Origin: Octopus vulgaris
Taxonomy: Eukaryota
NCBI GenBank assembly: GCA_951406725.2
Contig: OX597815.1
Span: 60,078,001-60,142,000 of the forward strand
DNA: 64,000 nucleotides
Direction: 5' to 3'
The notes below the pieces were generated by a model. That model had not been told where the DNA came from and searched no databases. It was given only the letters and a program-made list of their open reading frames with translations. Below are positions 6,922 to 52,192 of the stretch, in pieces. A program made the position numbers and the translations under genes. Every line of letters begins with the position of its first letter. Position 1 is the first letter of the stretch.

Positions 6922-7520
6922 GATCCACGGATAATTGTTTAATTATTAATGGTGAAACTTCGAAGTATAGATTTCACTGGTCCTTTTATATCTTTTCATA
7001 GTGTCTTGCACTTGTACATCCAACGCGCCGTTAAATTAGAATGCATGTTTCGTGGTTAGACGATTTGGAATCTACTTTAATCTTATATTTGAATATGATT
7101 TGCAGTCCTTGGACCGTTTTTTACGCATGCTGACTACTGATATAAGTTATTTTTTAATAATAATTTTTACCCTTAGTATTTATATTTTTAAACATTTTAG
7201 TTCTCGAGTAGGGTAATTCACTGCTAATTTATTCTGGCTTGACGTGCTAGTTGAATTGAACGCATGATGTATAATGGTGGAACTCGTTACGCACGTGTGT
7301 TCTTTCACGGAGATGGTATGTATTCGAGTTCTATTATTGCGTCCCCAGCGGATTCCACTGATGGTCCACGGATAATTGTTTAATTATTAATGGTGACACT
7401 TCGAAGTATGCAATTGACTGGTCTTTTTATATATTTTCATAGTGTCCTGCACGAGTACATCTAACGCGCTGTTAAATGACAACGCATTTTTCGCTGTTAG
7501 ACGATTTGGCGTCTACTTTC
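6922..7520 (+). mobile_element. Retrozyme-like module: 441-bp unit plus ~155-bp terminal direct repeat, each repeat with an HHR remnant
   Basis: 6924-7078 is repeated at 7365-7519 (diverged). HHR motifs at 6922-6973 (5' part lost) and 7352-7414. Confidence 0.7.
7352..7414 (+). ncRNA. Degenerate type I hammerhead ribozyme
   Basis: attcca-CTGATGG-tcca..tggt-GACA-cttcgaag-TA-tgcaat. The sister copy at 6922 supplies the canonical GA and GAAA. Helix III palindrome ACUUCGAAGU. Confidence 0.6.
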
Positions 7521-7539
7521 AGCATGTAATATATTGAAT

Positions 7540-8600
7540 ACATATATATATATATATATACACATACACACACATACGCACACACGCATATACTTATACA
7601 CATGCACACACACACACATACATACATACACCCATATACATACACACACACATACCTACATACTCCTATACGCACATACATACACACAGACATACACACA
7701 TACACACTCACACAAACATACACACACACATACTTACACACACACTCACCTGCACGCGCACACACATGCATGACAAACACCCATACACTCACACTCACAT
7801 ACGCACACACCAACATAAACACGCACACGCACACACACACCTACACTCCCACACACATACACACGCACCTACATACACACACGCACGCATACACACGCAT
7901 ACACACATACATTACACACGTACACACACACCTACATACACATGCATACACACACACACACAAACATGCACGGACACACCCAGACATACATACATACACC
8001 TATATACACACGCCCACACACCTACATACACACACATATACACACGCCCACACAGCTACATACACACACATACATACACACATACACGGACACACCCATA
8101 CATACTTACATACATACACCTATACACACACGCCTACACACCTACACACACACATGCACACACACACACATGTACGCACACACATATATACCCACACACA
8201 TGCACACACACACACATACGCACATACATGCACGCATGCACACGCGCACACCTACACACATACACACACACACACACACACGTACACATACACATACATA
8301 CATACACACACGCATACATACACCCATACACATACATGCATCCTACACACACATACATACACACTCACACATACATACACACACACGCACTCACTCACAC
8401 ACCTGTATGTTCGCGCACACACATGCACATACACACACTTCCCCACACCCACACGTACATACATACACACTCATACACATACACACACACATACTCACAT
8501 ACATTCATCGGACACACTGCCACCCAGACATACACACAGACACACTCACACATCCACACACACACATACGTACGCGCACACTCGCAGGCGCGCGCACACA
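7540..8600. repeat. Long degenerate (CA)n/(CATA)n microsatellite
   Basis: Direct reading; source of the spurious His/Thr-rich ORFs. Confidence 0.97.
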
Positions 8601-12835: not shown

Positions 12836-12958
12836 TCGCTGTACCAAAAATGAAAAATCCCTCTCGCCTAGATGTATATCAGATCGCCATGTTGAATCGC
12901 TAGCTTCTGTACGCATTTTTTTCTCTCCTTGTTTCTCTCCGTGTTTCTTTTCTGTGTA

Positions 12959-12996
12959 TCTTTCTGTTGAAGAGCGTAGGCTCGAAACGTAAAAGA
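12959..12996 (+). ncRNA. Minimal hammerhead in 5' pLTR, core CUGUUGA (A6U)
   Basis: tcttt-CTGTTGA-a-gagc-gtag-gctc-GAAA-cgt-A-aaaga: perfect 5-bp helix I, 4-bp helix II, ACGU palindrome. Confidence 0.75.
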
Positions 12997-13705
12997 CTTG
13001 TTTTATTTATATTCCTGAGCGCCATACTAATACAATTGTTTGTTTGTACTCCACCTGCCTTCGTCTTTTGTTTATTTTCATAAAGCTTCCCGTTATATAT
13101 TACGCGCTCACGTGGTCTCACTTTCATCCTATATTCTACCAACACCACTATCAACTCTTACCTCTGCATTGGATTTTCTTTACCTCCTGGATACTTACCA
13201 CTGGCTGCGCCTCTCTTTCACGGATCAAAGTGACTTTGTTATTGATGTGAAATCCTTAAAAAATATACCACGACGTCTATACATTTTTAACCTTGAACTC
13301 TCAACCTTGAACTTGTTCGTATAAACTGTCCCGTTCGTTTTATTTTATTTTCTCATATATTATCTTTTTTTTACATTCATTTCATACTTTCCACAATTTC
13401 CTGCATTTTTTGTCCTCCTTTCTGTCGTTTCTTCCTTCTCTGGATGTCCATACTCTGTTTCCTCTGCCTGCACCCCCTTTTTTGCCTCCCCCTCTCTCTG
13501 TTTCCTTTCTTTTTTCTTTCCTTTTTCCATTTGTCCCATCTTCTTTGCCTTTATTTTCTGCCCCTACCGCTTTTTTTATCTAGTTTTTCGAACGATTGTT
13601 TTTTTTGTTGTTTTTTCGAACGTTTGTTTTTTTCCCCTTTTTTTCTCCCTTTTTTTCTCTTTTTTTTCTCCCCTTTTTTTCTCTCCTTTTTTTCACTATT
13701 CCACC

Positions 13706-16530
13706 ATGCCGGATTACAAATCCTACCTCCTCACTATCCACCACTGTTTGAAAGATTACCTCCGCCTACTCCCTCCAAACTGCTTTCAGCCGTCCATTAA
13801 TCTCTCTCTGCTCCTTTTTAAAAAAGCCCGCTTCTCTAGCCACGTCTCTTTTCGAAACCGCTGCCTAAAGGTTTCCGCCTCCATTTCCACCCTGCTCTCT
13901 ACTCGGCTTCTTCCATCTTACCCATACTCCGCACCACATCCTACCGCCTTATGCGGGCCACCATTCGCTCCAATCTCTCTAAACTACATACCATCGACTG
14001 CCTCCTCCCTCCTGCTTTTTCCATCCTTTTCTCCTCTCTGCCGCCTTTCCATGCTCAAAACACTCTACGCTTCATTATCCATTTAAATCACCTCTTCCAT
14101 CAATTTCTTTCCAATACCAAACTTCGTAAACTCCAATCACTCCTCTATTCCACCACACCCGACGCCACTATCCCAACTCCTCCACTACCCTTCTCCCCTC
14201 CTGATAGGCTCCACCCACCCACACCTAGCCCCACTGTCCCTCCCAATAACCCCCCACCTCCCCCAATCCCTCCCCCTCAAACCTCCACCAGCCCTACCAC
14301 CCCTCCTACTCCTACTCCCATTCCATCCACCCCTCGTACTTCTATTCCACCCACCCCTTCTCCACTTCCGTCTGTTGTTACCATTCCCCCTGATCTTCCC
14401 CTCTCTGCGGCGGAACGCTCCGTCCTTAGTAGGAGTCTGCGTTTCATCCCCCTCACTCCATCCTGTAAGGAATTCCAGACGCGAGCTGATGTCCACAGCT
14501 TTGTGCGCCGCGTCCGGTTGGGTGCGTTTTTCCGCGACTCACCACCCGCATCCAACGACGAGGACTGCTTCACTGACCTGGGCCGCCGACCATCCCTGTG
14601 GACGCCTGCCCCCGGCCAGTTTCTAGCAGTGGATCTTTTCGCGGGTGCCTGTTGGAGCGGTTCAACTTCTCCAGGCGTACCGCCGCCTCAACATCTCCCC
14701 GGCCGAGCTCTCGACTCTTCGTTCCCTCCAACTGCGCGCTGACATTATCATCAAACCGGCTGACAAGGGTGGAGCTGTGGTGGTGTGGGGCGCGAACCTC
14801 TACAGGGCCGAGGCTCTCCGCCAACTCAATGACACCTCCTTCTACTCCCCTCTGTCCTCTAACCCCACACGTAGCTACCAACAGACGGTATTCTCTACTG
14901 TCCACGACCTCATCTCGTCCTCCCGTCTCCCCACACCGCATCCAACCTAATTGTGCGAACCCCACGCACCCCCACCATTTACTTCCTCCCCAAAATCCAC
15001 AAACCCAACAACCCTGGCCGCCCCATCGTCTCCGCCTGCAACTGCCCCACAGAGCTCATCTCAAAATACCTCGACCATGTCCTTGCCCCCCTAGTGGCGT
15101 CTCTTCCCTCCAACATCCACGACACCAACCATGCTCTCCGGCTTTTCAACTCTTTCTCCTTTCCTCCCGGCTCCTCCAAAATACTTTTTACAATGGACAT
15201 CCAGAGCCTCTATACCGTCATCTCTCACAACGAAGGACTGCGGGCACTTCAACACTTTTTCGACCTCCGCCCCAACCCCGAACCCGACACCTCCACACTC
15301 ATTCGTCTGGCCGAACTTGTCCTTTCTCTTAACTGCTTCTCGTTCGCGGGCGAGTTCTACCAACAGATCTCGGGAGTGGCCATGTGAACGCGAATGGGCC
15401 CCAACTATGCGAACCTATTCGTTGGCTATGTTGAGGCCCAAATATTCTCTAATTTCACTGGTCCCACTCCCGAACTATACGGTCGTTACATTGACGACAT
15501 TATCGGTGCCACCTCACTCTCCCGTGAACATCTAGATCCCTTCCTCTGTTTCGTTCAATCCTTCCATCCTGTCCTCCACTTCACCTCCACTATCTCCAAC
15601 ACCTCTGTCTCCTTCCTCGACATTTCGGTCAGCATTCATCACTCCACTCTTACCACCTCCATTCACTACAAACACACAGACTCACACTCATGCCTAAACT
15701 TCTCTTCCTCCCACCCAAAACACACCAAGCTTTCCATCCCCTATTCCCAAATCCTCCCGTCTCTGTAGTGACGACCATGACTTTGAGACTCAGTCTCAAC
15801 GCATGGCTCGCCACTTCATCCTACGTGGATACCCACTTACCACTATCCACACCGCCCTTGCCAGAGCACGTTCCGTACACCGTGCATCTGCTCTCTCCCC
15901 CCGAACCCTCCCTGTAGTCTCCCGCCTCCCTTTTTCCCCTCACTTACCACCCCACGACCCTACCTCTCCAACGCACCATTCTTCAAGCTTTCCGGCATCT
16001 CCAGTCCGACCCGTCCACTTCACACTTCTTCCCTAACCGACCCCTCCCCTCCTTCAAACGAGCCCATAACCTACGAGACCTTTTGGTCCACAGCTCCTTC
16101 CCTGACCCTGCCTCCCAACCTGGCTCGTTCCCCTGCTCCCACCCACGTTGCCGCACTTGCCCTTACCTCTCCAACACCACCCTCCTCACTGGCACCCATC
16201 ATCGACCCTATCGCATCATCAACTCCTTCACCTGCACCTCCAGCAATATCATCTATTGCATCTCTTGCTCTCTCTGCCATTCCCTGTACATCGGCCAAAC
16301 GGGACGCCGCTTGGCTGACCGGTTCGCGGAACATCTCCGTGACATCCGCCTTGCCAACGATACACCGGTCTCACGCCATTTCCGCTCCACCGGTCACTCC
16401 TTGCAACACCTGTCTGTGTTCGGTCTGTCCTTGCACAGAGGCCATCCGGATTCCCGTTTGCGCCGTGAACAGGGATTAATCTTCTCTCTTTGCTCTTTTA
16501 CGCCATTTGGTCTCAACTCTCCCCCTCCTC
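13706..16530 (+). pseudogene. PLE polyprotein: RT, Cys-rich linker, GIY-YIG endonuclease (frameshifts and a nonsense codon)
   Basis: IIIKPADKGGAVVV; YFLPKIHKPNNPGRPIVS; MDIQSLYT; GVAM*TRMGPNYAN; YGRYIDDI; PCSHPRCRTC; NIIYCISCSLC..LYIGQTGRRLADRFAEH; PFGLN. Confidence 0.93.
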
Positions 16531-17091
16531 ATCTAACCTCCCCCGACTCCTACTTCTCTTCAGCCCTTCATCTTTTCACCCCTACTTTCTTTCCCTCCTC
16601 TTCCCTTCTTCCTCCTCTTCTTTCCTCTTTCTTCTTCCCTCTTCCCTTTCTCTATGCTCCCTCACTCCCCTTCTCCCCTTTTCTCTACCCCCTTCTCCTC
16701 TCCTTCCTTCTCCCCTTCCCCCTCCTCTTCTCCTCTTTCCTTCTCCCCATCCCCTCTCACCCTCTCCTTCTTTCCTGCTCCTCCCTCTCCCCCTCCCCCT
16801 CCTCCTCCCCTCTCCCCCTCATCTCCTCTCTCTACACTACACCATACGACATTACACATCACATCATACATACATACACACGTCCAGACCTTTCATACGC
16901 ACTACATACTCTCTCATACACACACGCACCCTTATGTTGGGGCGAAGTCATTTGACCCTGTTATCTCCCCTACTTTCGCTCTCACGTCCGATCTCTGACT
17001 TCTGGCCGGAATCAGATCGCCTTGTTGAATCGCTAGCTTCTGCACGCATTTTTTTCTCTCCTTGTTTCTCTCCGTGTTTCTTTTCTGTGTA

Positions 17092-17129
17092 TCTTACTGT
17101 TGAAGAGCGTAGGCTCGAAACGTAAAAGA
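17092..17129 (+). ncRNA. Minimal hammerhead in 3' pLTR, core CUGUUGA
   Basis: tctta-CTGTTGA-a-gagc-gtag-gctc-GAAA-cgt-A-aaaga; one mismatch in helix I. Confidence 0.7.
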
Positions 17130-17217
17130 CTTGTTTTATTTATATTCCTGAGCGCCATACTAATACAATTGTTTGTTTGTACTCCACCTGCCTTCGTCTT
17201 TTCATAAAGCTTCCCGT

Positions 17218-17249
<32 letters not shown>

Positions 17250-51043: not shown

Positions 51044-51161
51044 AAAAGCAATAAAGATTCAAGTTAATTTAAATGAATTAACTTGAATATGGTACCTAAC
51101 TTAGATGCACCAAAAGAAAACTATACTGATTTAACAATACAGTAATGTGGGGTGATTATAA

Positions 51162-51237
51162 GCGAGAAAGAAGCAACAAGAATGGATAGGTTTTTAGTAC
51201 AATAAAAACCTATCCATTCTTGTTGCTTCTTTCTCGC
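51162..51237. repeat. Perfect 35-bp inverted repeat with 6-nt loop; smaller 13-bp hairpin at 51057-51088
   Basis: gcgagaaagaagcaacaagaatggataggttttta-gtacaa-taaaaacctatccattcttgttgcttctttctcgc. Confidence 0.95.
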
Positions 51238-51238
51238 G

Positions 51239-51272
<34 letters not shown>

Positions 51273-51442
51273 TATTTTGTTTTAAATATAAGAGTGTATA
51301 AATATTTATACACAGAGAGAAGACCCTTGACAGGACTTCTTACATGCCAAAAAGGACGTTTAAAACCCAAACCACGAAAATAGAATTCTTAAGGCACGCT
51401 GTTAAGGATACTAAAGTGAACAAAAAAATAAAATATTAGTTA

Positions 51443-51512
51443 ATCCTGTACTCGAGTTTCGCTATTAATGACCAAATAAATTAATTTGGCATCTGTAGCT
51501 CTTCAGCAGGAT
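51443..51512 (-). ncRNA. Type I hammerhead ribozyme, fully canonical
   Basis: Minus strand: atcctg-CTGAAGA-gcta..gccaaat..atttggt..tagc-GAAA-ctcgag-TA-caggat. Confidence 0.92.
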
Positions 51513-51927
51513 CGCTAATGAATGCATAATTATGTAGCTATAATAAGTACCGAAAGCATGTGCTAAAGACAGCTCCGTCCGTATGCATTATGGATTCGAA
51601 CTTAGTGCGCGAGCGTATTCATATAGCCCAGCCGTAAATTTAAACTGTGTACAATATGGCCTTAGAATTGGAAAATTTTACTGTAGTAAATATGAGGGTA
51701 AAAAATTAATATAGTTTATTACCTGTAGTTCGCATGCGTAATAAATGCCATAAGACATAACATATTTCTAAATATAAGCGTGTATAAAGATTTATACACA
51801 GAGAGAAGACCCTTGACAGGACTTCTTACAGGCCAAAAAGGGCAGTTAAAACCCAAACCACGAAAAGAGAATTCTTAAGGCACGCTGTTAATGACACTAG
51901 AGTGAACAAAAAATAAAACATCAGTTA

Positions 51928-51997
51928 ATCCTGTACTCGAGTTTCGCTATTATTGATCAAATAAATTAATTTGATATCTGTAGCTCTTCAGCAGGAT
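51928..51997 (-). ncRNA. Type I hammerhead ribozyme, fully canonical
   Basis: Minus strand: atcctg-CTGAAGA-gcta..atcaaat..atttgat..tagc-GAAA-ctcgag-TA-caggat. Confidence 0.92.
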
Positions 51998-52077
51998 CGC
52001 TTATGAATGCATAATTATGTAAGTATAATAAGCACCGAAAAAACGTACGCAAGACAGCTCCATCTTGATATAAATAA

Positions 52078-52192
<115 letters not shown>

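What the first reader, a model, noticed from the sequence alone, without database searches (positions are those of the whole stretch)
51283..52061. Tandem pair of canonical hammerhead ribozymes defining a 485-nt excisable non-coding RNA (retrozyme-like element)
Seen: two minus-strand type I HHRs (51928-51997, 51443-51512) with intact CUGAAGA/GAAA core, GUA site, 6-bp helix I and palindromic helix III ACUCGAGU. They lie in ~295-bp direct repeats bounded by (TA)n, with no credible ORF. The repeats have drifted, yet core, helix I and helix III are identical. Of four helix II differences, three keep pairing (C-G to U-A double change; G.U to A-U). Known: minimal type I HHRs with palindromic helix III occur in PLEs and in tandem non-LTR retrozymes, cleave as dimers and can give circular RNAs. 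Inference: transcription would release monomer 51449-51933 (485 nt), which could circularise and be reverse transcribed in trans by a PLE RT.
Basis: partly seen in the sequence, partly recalled or inferred. Interest (0 to 1): 0.9.

Follow-up and report, generated by a model that had tools for sequence, protein, structure and literature searches.

The report
Old hammerhead retrozyme with Penelope-type insertions
Two intact hammerhead ribozyme motifs, 485 bases apart, mark one worn copy of an old, non-coding repeat family whose copies sit in TA microsatellites in the pattern left by Penelope-like jumping genes, so it is likely a new member of the known animal 'retrozymes', predicted but not shown to cut itself and form an RNA circle.

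Summary
Observation confirmed. Both motifs score above Rfam's Hammerhead_1 cut-off at the stated coordinates. The precursor's lowest-energy fold is the double hammerhead. The element is 1.6 copies of a 485-nt non-coding unit, and one copy of a dispersed, decayed family in this 2.8-Gb animal genome (copies about 80% alike). Across 67 loci, 89 of 100 arms end at one of two fixed points about 85 nt apart. None ends at the cleavage site, and 72 of those 89 abut a microsatellite. All 33 two-arm loci are head-to-head inversions. This is the Penelope-like (PLE) insertion signature. No unit runs into a PLE reading frame (0 of 83 loci), and no coding parent was found. Helix I covaries across copies, so the ribozyme was likely selected in the source lineages, while the genomic copies decay about neutrally. 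This locus is the only one of 9 two-ribozyme arms with both intact, which is only weak evidence of selection here. Cleavage, circles and transcription of this copy are unshown. Verdict: new member of the non-LTR retrozyme / non-autonomous PLE kind. The scan has noted similar elements in other genomes.

The parts
51283..52072 (-). Whole insertion: 1.6 head-to-tail copies (A-B-A) of a 485-nt non-coding unit, 5'-truncated; longest of 100 arms examined (biased, it was the query)
51768..52061 (-). Upstream repeat A (294 nt); 14 of the 28 differences between the repeats are private to this copy
51577..51767 (-). Segment B (about 190 nt), non-coding rest of the unit; its first 81-88 nt are the family's optional 'tail'
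51283..51576 (-). Downstream repeat A (294 nt); ends at the family's main fixed 3' end (A290-294)
51928..51997 (-). Type I hammerhead 1 (RF00163, 34.5 bits); predicted cut 51934/51933; extended helix II; palindromic helix III
51443..51512 (-). Type I hammerhead 2 (RF00163, 34.4 bits); predicted cut 51449/51448
51449..51933 (-). Predicted 485-nt monomer between the two cleavage sites (not shown to exist as RNA)
51679..51686 (-). Position of the family's second fixed 3' end (B81-B88), inferred second reverse-transcription start; not used as an end in this copy
51294..51313 (-). 9-bp hairpin just before the main 3' end (also at 51779-51798); candidate part of the enzyme's start signal (inferred)
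51239..51275 (.). (TA)n microsatellite at the 3' end, likely the insertion target
52068..52100 (.). (TA)n microsatellite at the 5' end

Best explanation
This is one old genomic copy of a non-coding 485-nt hammerhead-bearing repeat unit (a non-LTR retrozyme) that was likely copied into a TA microsatellite in trans by the reverse transcriptase/GIY-YIG endonuclease of a Penelope-like element. Shown: the unit, its lack of coding, its dispersal, its decay and its insertion structure. Predicted: tandem transcripts fold into a double hammerhead and cut out monomers, while a single copy, with only a 2-bp helix III, would cut poorly, so a ligated monomer circle would be stable. Inferred: the PLE enzyme nicked (TA)n and began reverse transcription inside the RNA at one of two sites about 85 nt apart, giving 5'-truncated partial tandems and, often, a second inverted arm primed from the other site. 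This copy was primed at the A end and ran 1.6 units, across two ribozyme sites. Whether its template was a circle or an uncut linear multimer is open (about even). The family is most likely extinct, and this copy kept both ribozymes mostly by being younger than average and by luck.
For: Family: 817 first-look candidates, 40 scored, all non-self pieces 72-91% identical, long matches 73-85%; mean between-locus distance 20.7% vs 14.5% between arms of one locus. Ends: of 100 arms in 67 loci, 56 end at A>=270, 33 at B60-95, 0 at A120-140, 11 elsewhere; microsatellite within 30 nt for 43 of 56 and 29 of 33, but 2 of 11 others; 5' starts scattered; 33 of 33 two-arm loci head-to-head; 24 of the 26 with both ends classed use one end of each kind (expected 12.9, P 4.6e-6). 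These match PLE hallmarks in PMC8557442 (passages) and the two internal RT start sites that define the PLE tail in PMC11167929. Coding PLE families in this genome also end at (TA)n. Non-coding: no PLE protein match to A or B pieces; 0 of 83 loci continue into a PLE ORF; orders A-B-A, B-A-B and A-B-A-B' all occur. Ribozyme: Rfam above cut-off; double hammerhead is the minimum-energy fold of 51420-52010, 13.4 kcal/mol below two single ones, inter-copy helix III pair probabilities 0.92-1.0; 56 cells with changes on both sides vs 23.9 shuffled, 0/500; Watson-Crick swaps need 4, 1, 2 and 3 changes on the tree at four helix I pairs. Decay: core intact in 22 of 46 unselected copies, fully intact in 5, near the 39% expected from a 0.076 median end branch over 12 positions (hand calculation).
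Against: No coding parent sharing the unit's sequence was found among 50 PLE loci, so the PLE link rests on insertion structure only. The tail (81-88 nt) is longer than the 30-40 bp reported for PLEs. In the whole 779-nt transcript the inter-copy helix III has probability only about 0.44 and is not in the minimum-energy fold. Part of the covariation is shared descent: the top mutual-information pairs include non-paired subfamily markers, and 'pairs with a change on both sides' alone was not significant (47/500). The 10.1-11.1 pair, normally G-C, is unpaired in 16 of 44 sequences. In a PLE tested in vitro, hammerhead cleavage was not needed for insertion and unprocessed RNA was the main substrate (PMC11167929), and only 1 of 9 predicted frog retrozyme dimers cleaved.
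Confidence: 0.8

Rival explanations
1. The unit is the pLTR or a gutted remnant of a coding PLE, and all copies are truncated by-products of that parent, with no life of their own as a retrozyme.
For: The architecture is that of PLE insertions. The genome holds thousands of PLE pieces in several families (6136 and 9223 first-look candidates), of which only 50 loci were read. Earlier scan notes reached this verdict for similar cases in other genomes (unchecked).
Against: Wherever an arm reaches 5' of B1 with recognisable sequence it continues into A again. 0 of 83 loci join the unit to a PLE ORF; the 5 with a PLE fragment within the flank have it on the other strand or separated by unrelated sequence. 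No coding trace in A or B. At least three subfamilies with compensatory changes imply long independent propagation.
Confidence: 0.08
2. This particular locus has been kept by selection as a working double ribozyme (host-co-opted or a still-active source) that releases a 485-nt linear or circular RNA.
For: Only one of 9 arms with two ribozyme sites has both intact. 0 of 28 differences fall in 41 critical positions (P 0.012). The C-G to U-A double change is private to one repeat (family frequencies 0.02 and 0.05).
Against: The locus was picked because both motifs are intact. It is younger than most (end branches 0.05 vs median 0.076). A 41-nt unchanged run also lies outside the ribozyme. The double change perfects a DNA inverted repeat, which template-switch mutation can do without selection (own knowledge). 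Mutations fall evenly on both repeats (14 vs 12), and no close daughter copies exist (best other long match 80-85%).
Confidence: 0.1
3. The hammerhead likeness is a relic or accident and the repeat is an ordinary satellite or locally duplicated sequence spread without an RNA step.
For: No RNA processing shown. Most copies have broken motifs (41 of 46 not fully intact).
Against: Rfam match above cut-off, compensatory swaps, fixed 3' ends with random 5' truncation and inversion, dispersal over many chromosomes.
Confidence: 0.02

Closest known systems
Metazoan non-LTR retrozymes (Cervera & de la Pena 2020, PMC7229834; Li, Clavereau & Pollet 2026, bioRxiv 10.64898/2026.07.22.740005)
   Same: Non-coding tandem unit with a type I hammerhead in each repeat, weak palindromic helix III, low GC (35%), dispersed monomers and dimers, coexisting with PLEs; two consecutive complete ribozymes meet the 2026 preprint's definition of an 'active' copy.
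   Different: Unit of 485 nt is above the 150-450 bp of the 2020 paper (within the 51-972 bp of the preprint); helix II is extended to 39 nt; no array longer than about 1.6 units seen; the family looks extinct; expression and circles unshown. The sections read argue PLE mobilisation from co-occurrence, shared ribozyme type and pLTR trees, not from insertion ends as here.
Endonuclease-bearing Penelope-like elements and their pLTR hammerheads (PMC4209133, PMC8557442, PMC11167929)
   Same: 5' truncation, partial tandems, inverted 5'-truncated second copy, tail on one end only, (TA)n targets, internal start of reverse transcription at two sites (inferred here), palindromic helix III that favours dimer cleavage.
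   Different: No RT or GIY-YIG coding; tail 81-88 nt rather than 30-40 bp; no sequence likeness to the pLTRs of the PLE loci sampled in this genome.
Newt satellite 2 / ASBVd double hammerheads (via PMC6155905 and PMC4209133 passages)
   Same: Unstable helix III as monomer, predicted stable 8-bp helix III between two tandem copies.
   Different: Dispersed short partial tandems rather than satellite arrays or a replicating viroid; activity untested.
Plant LTR retrozymes (PMC4918200, search listing only)
   Same: Two ribozymes in direct repeats flanking a non-coding stretch.
   Different: Type I rather than type III ribozyme; the repeats are pseudo-LTRs of variable length made by truncation; PBS/PPT and 4-bp TSD were not looked for.

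Membership tests
Type I hammerhead ribozyme (Rfam RF00163) | Score at or above the family's gathering threshold; intact CUGANGA/GAAA/UH core | tested here: met
   34.5 and 34.4 bits vs 34; sequence
Type I hammerhead ribozyme (Rfam RF00163) | Helices supported by compensatory change | tested here: met
   56 double-change cells vs 23.9 shuffled, far above slid controls; 1-4 independent swaps per helix I pair; helix III shows no variation, so no support either way
Type I hammerhead ribozyme (Rfam RF00163) | Canonical loop 1-loop 2 tertiary contact | tested here: inconclusive
   Helix II is extended by a second stem; internal loops exist in helices I and II but no contact was tested
Type I hammerhead ribozyme (Rfam RF00163) | Self-cleavage | not testable with these tools
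   Fold prediction only
Non-LTR retrozyme | Tandem repeat with a complete type I ribozyme in at least two consecutive units | tested here: met
   1.6 units, two complete motifs; definition
Non-LTR retrozyme | Non-coding, low GC, few hundred nt monomer | tested here: met
   485 nt, 35% GC, longest ORF 43 aa; no PLE protein match
Non-LTR retrozyme | Dispersed multi-copy family coexisting with coding PLEs | tested here: met
   83 loci read; PLE families present
Non-LTR retrozyme | Expressed as monomeric linear and circular RNA | not testable with these tools
   Only contigs of guessed-RNA runs were available; they cannot show ends, strand or circles
PLE-mobilised non-autonomous element | 5' truncation, partial tandem, inverted 5' copy, tail on one end, microsatellite target | tested here: met
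   hallmarks
PLE-mobilised non-autonomous element | Sequence shared with the pLTR of a coding PLE | tested here: inconclusive
   No match in 50 PLE loci beyond one adjacent but separate copy (L048); thousands of PLE pieces were not read
Coding Penelope-like element | RT + GIY-YIG ORF between pLTRs | tested here: not met
   190-nt non-coding stretch between repeats; 0 of 83 loci join the unit to a PLE ORF

The most novel reading that the evidence does not exclude
The family is a fossil record of a Penelope reverse transcriptase reading more than once round a ribozyme-made 485-nt RNA circle, priming both nicked target strands from two fixed sites 85 nt apart on the RNA, and this locus is the surviving copy that can still fold a double hammerhead and release the circle. 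It would give a small, protein-free template for testing whether circles are the true PLE/retrozyme transposition intermediate.
Probability: 0.2. Interest if true: 0.6.

Novelty: new member of a known kind. Interest (0 to 1): 0.35.

Why it matters
Animal retrozymes are proposed to hitch-hike on Penelope-like elements, but in the paper sections read the support is co-occurrence, shared ribozyme type and pLTR trees. This family shows the PLE insertion signature in its ends: two fixed start points, one used by each arm of an inverted insertion, neither at the ribozyme cut. That bears on the open question of whether circles or uncut multimers are the template and what the ribozyme is for. The window copy is the best-preserved dimer found and a ready construct for a cleavage assay. 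The class itself is known and the family appears extinct, so the gain is incremental.

Tried and rejected
Rfam at gathering with fast filters on the whole window: 0 hits; the relaxed scan found both motifs. Search for a coding parent: GIY-YIG family search (148 matches listed, 30 loci read), window PLE protein search (150 listed, 20 read), profile searches of A and B against those 50 loci, DNA searches centred on the B/A junction, the A end and the tail, looser ribozyme pattern: no parent found. L048 holds the unit beside a PLE fragment, but on the opposite strand, separated by microsatellite, and that PLE has its own unrelated 3' end. A Pfam accession asked for was not in the library. RNA: no RNA holder listed for this stretch. 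Contigs of 4 of 19 listed runs were laid at 80% likeness; the deepest pieces in X5 and X6 (depth 44.9 and 142.4, guessed RNA, two studies) carry the deletion joint of another copy, L025, and read across its cleavage site; strand and ends cannot be told, and one X6 flank differs from L025's, so this says nothing about the window copy or circles. L025 has no close copies. Pile-up of 5' ends at the cleavage site: 2 of 100 arms start there within microhomology (L086, L120), about 1 expected; rejected. Circular monomer fold is not unusually stable (z -1.5, 40 shuffles). Host gene context: 18 long ORFs of the window gave only RT and transposase families above cut-off; whether the locus is intronic was not settled. 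Literature: 'hammerhead ribozyme + Penelope + retrozyme', 'hammerhead + octopus + Penelope' (the host guess comes from recalled SINE likeness and genome size, not from a call); no paper describing this family was seen. Supplements of the bioRxiv preprint were closed and supplements of the PMC papers were not read; they may list related families. No earlier notes exist for this genome.

Full report
Observation. The minus strand of 51283-52072 holds two type I hammerheads. Both match Rfam RF00163 above its gathering score at exactly 51928-51997 and 51443-51512 (34.5 and 34.4 bits, E 1.2e-6), although the fast whole-window scan missed them. They lie in 294-nt direct repeats (A) that differ at 28 of 293 columns, separated by about 190 nt (B), with (TA)n on both sides. 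Predicted cuts at 51934/51933 and 51449/51448 bound 485 nt with 35% GC and no ORF over 43 aa even as a circle. Helix I is 7 bp with a G.U pair. Helix II is extended to 39 nt.

Fold. Each motif alone has only a 2-bp helix III. The minimum-energy fold of 51420-52010 is the double hammerhead: helix I strands cross-paired, an 8-bp ACUCGAGU helix between the two copies, cores unpaired. It is 13.4 kcal/mol below two single ribozymes, with pair probabilities of 0.92-1.0. In the whole 779-nt transcript that probability drops to about 0.44. Dimer-dependent cleavage is known for newt and viroid type I motifs and is thought to protect monomeric circles (PMC4209133 and PMC6155905, passages). This is a prediction. 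In a frog test only 1 of 9 predicted dimers cleaved.

Family. The genome (G000, 2.8 Gb, 227 contigs) gave 817 first-look candidates, of which 40 were scored; long matches are 73-85% identical. Further searches brought the set to 83 distinct loci. The end analysis used the 67 held at that time, not the last 16. Orders A-B-A, B-A-B and A-B-A-B' occur, so 485 nt is a real unit, but no arm exceeds about 1.6 units. A strict pattern finds 12 intact motifs genome-wide, control 0. As 2 of 46 unselected copies fit it, the family has roughly 200-250 ribozyme-bearing copies (hand estimate, wide error). Distances average 20.7% between loci and 14.5% between arms of one locus. A tree of 51 of 91 A pieces, stem columns removed, shows about three subfamilies and end branches of median 0.076; the window's two repeats have 0.051 and 0.049. 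No young copies were seen, so the family looks extinct.

Insertion structure. Of 100 arms in 67 loci, 56 end at A270-294, 33 at B60-95 (peaks at B80-81 and B85-88), none at A120-140 around the cleavage site (A128), and 11 elsewhere. Microsatellite follows 43 of 56, 29 of 33 and 2 of 11. 5' ends are scattered. 33 loci have a second inverted arm, all head-to-head; among the 26 with both ends classed, 24 use one end of each kind (12.9 expected, P 4.6e-6). 64 arms cross the cleavage site once, 9 twice, 27 not at all. These are the PLE hallmarks listed in PMC8557442 (passages): 5' truncation, partial tandems, inverted 5' copy, a tail on one end, (TA)n targets. PMC11167929 (parts 1-2 of 4 read) showed in vitro that a PLE enzyme cuts AT-rich DNA and starts reverse transcription inside its RNA at two sites whose interval is the tail. 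I infer the same here, with an interval of 81-88 nt rather than 30-40, and each arm of an inverted insertion primed from a different site. Coding PLE families of this genome also end at (TA)n.

No coding parent found. No PLE protein piece matches A or B. In 83 loci, 5 have a PLE fragment in the flank, none continuous with the unit. Profiles of A and B find nothing in 50 PLE loci except the separate copy in L048. Only 50 of thousands of PLE pieces were read, so a parent may exist.

Was the ribozyme selected? In the source lineages, likely yes. On 45 aligned motifs, 88.1% of cells pair against 83.3% shuffled and 22-43% slid; 56 cells change on both sides against 23.9 (0/500). The count of pairs with a double change was not significant (47/500). 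Relatedness inflates this, since unpaired subfamily markers top the mutual-information list. On the tree, Watson-Crick swaps need 4, 1, 2 and 3 changes at four helix I pairs and 1 each at two helix II pairs. After insertion, apparently not: the core is intact in 22 of 46 unselected copies and the whole motif in 5, close to neutral decay at that branch length (about 39% for 12 positions, hand calculation). At this locus the evidence is weak. It is the only one of 9 two-site arms with both motifs intact, no difference falls in 33 or 41 critical positions (P 0.03, 0.012), and the helix II double change is private. Against this, the locus was chosen for being intact, it is younger than most, an equally long unchanged run lies outside the ribozyme, and the double change perfects a DNA inverted repeat (template-switch mutation is a known neutral route; own knowledge).

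RNA. No RNA holder was listed for the stretch, which is no evidence either way. Contigs from 4 of 19 runs show family-related pieces in guessed-RNA runs. The deepest match a different, internally deleted copy (L025) and read across its cut site. Contigs cannot show strand, ends or circles.

Mechanism. Shown: non-coding unit, dispersal, PLE-type ends, decay. Predicted: dimer-dependent cleavage and a stable monomer circle. Inferred: trans-mobilisation by a PLE enzyme with two internal start sites. Open: the template. The window copy crosses two ribozyme sites, which needs a circle read 1.6 times, an uncut multimer, or template jumps. The absence of arms longer than 1.6 units and of long arrays fits a circle or short multimers. 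The in vitro finding that uncut RNA is the main PLE substrate fits the linear route. I put these about even.

Comparison and novelty. Non-LTR retrozymes are described as short tandem repeats with type I hammerheads, expressed as circles in coral, mussel and axolotl, with PLEs proposed as the mobiliser (PMC7229834, passages and sections 14 and 17). A 2026 preprint argues they are non-autonomous PLE derivatives (parts 1-3 of 5 read). More-than-unit copying from circles was already proposed for PLEs. This element meets the sequence-level definition; expression is untested. It differs in its long helix II, 485-nt unit and longer tail. Four literature searches showed no description of this family; supplements were not seen. 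Earlier scan notes describe similar elements in other genomes (unchecked); they agreed with my reading and supplied no evidence. Verdict: new member of a known kind, interest 0.35.

Noticed in passing
window 6923-7540 (+): A second, more distant hammerhead repeat of the same build: two 85%-identical repeats 441 nt apart with decayed cores and a 10-nt palindrome at helix III, ending at (TA)n; weak profile matches to both A and B (E 4e-5, 3e-6).
   Followed up: partly
window 12878-17220 (+): A near full-length coding Penelope-like element (RT and GIY-YIG pieces in broken frames) between 95%-identical pLTRs, each with a minimal hammerhead variant (UUGAAGA core, ACGU palindrome) at 12967 and 17100; thousands of related pieces in the genome.
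   Followed up: partly
window 51050-51240: Perfect hairpin right after the element's (TA)n, 75% like the end of another non-coding, head-to-head inverted hammerhead repeat (59-nt helix II, ACGAUCGU palindrome) seen in L053; probably a heavily truncated inverted insertion of that family.
   Followed up: partly
L152 (G000:C20:36459869-36459917): A further tandem hammerhead repeat, period about 435 nt, same ACUCGAGU palindrome but unrelated unit; the genome holds several retrozyme-like families.
   Followed up: no
L025 (G000:C9:56761163-56761653): A copy with an internal deletion (period about 401 nt) matches the deepest contigs in two guessed-RNA runs of two studies, read across its cleavage site; its helix II starts with an A-A mismatch.
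   Followed up: partly
Alignment A2, columns 22/66 and 80: The ribozyme's 10.1-11.1 pair varies by lineage (G-C, U-A, A-A, U-U), and the cleavage triplet is GUA in 39 and GUU in 18 copies, GUU marking one subfamily.
   Followed up: partly
L051, L056 and many other loci: A young PLE family with 781-aa open frames in many copies ends at (TA)n; a candidate source of enzyme in trans, though it shares no sequence with the unit.
   Followed up: partly
Run X1, contig 3: A DNA contig matches window 51508-51809 with no substitutions and a 22-nt gap, so the insertion is present in that sample with a length difference.
   Followed up: no
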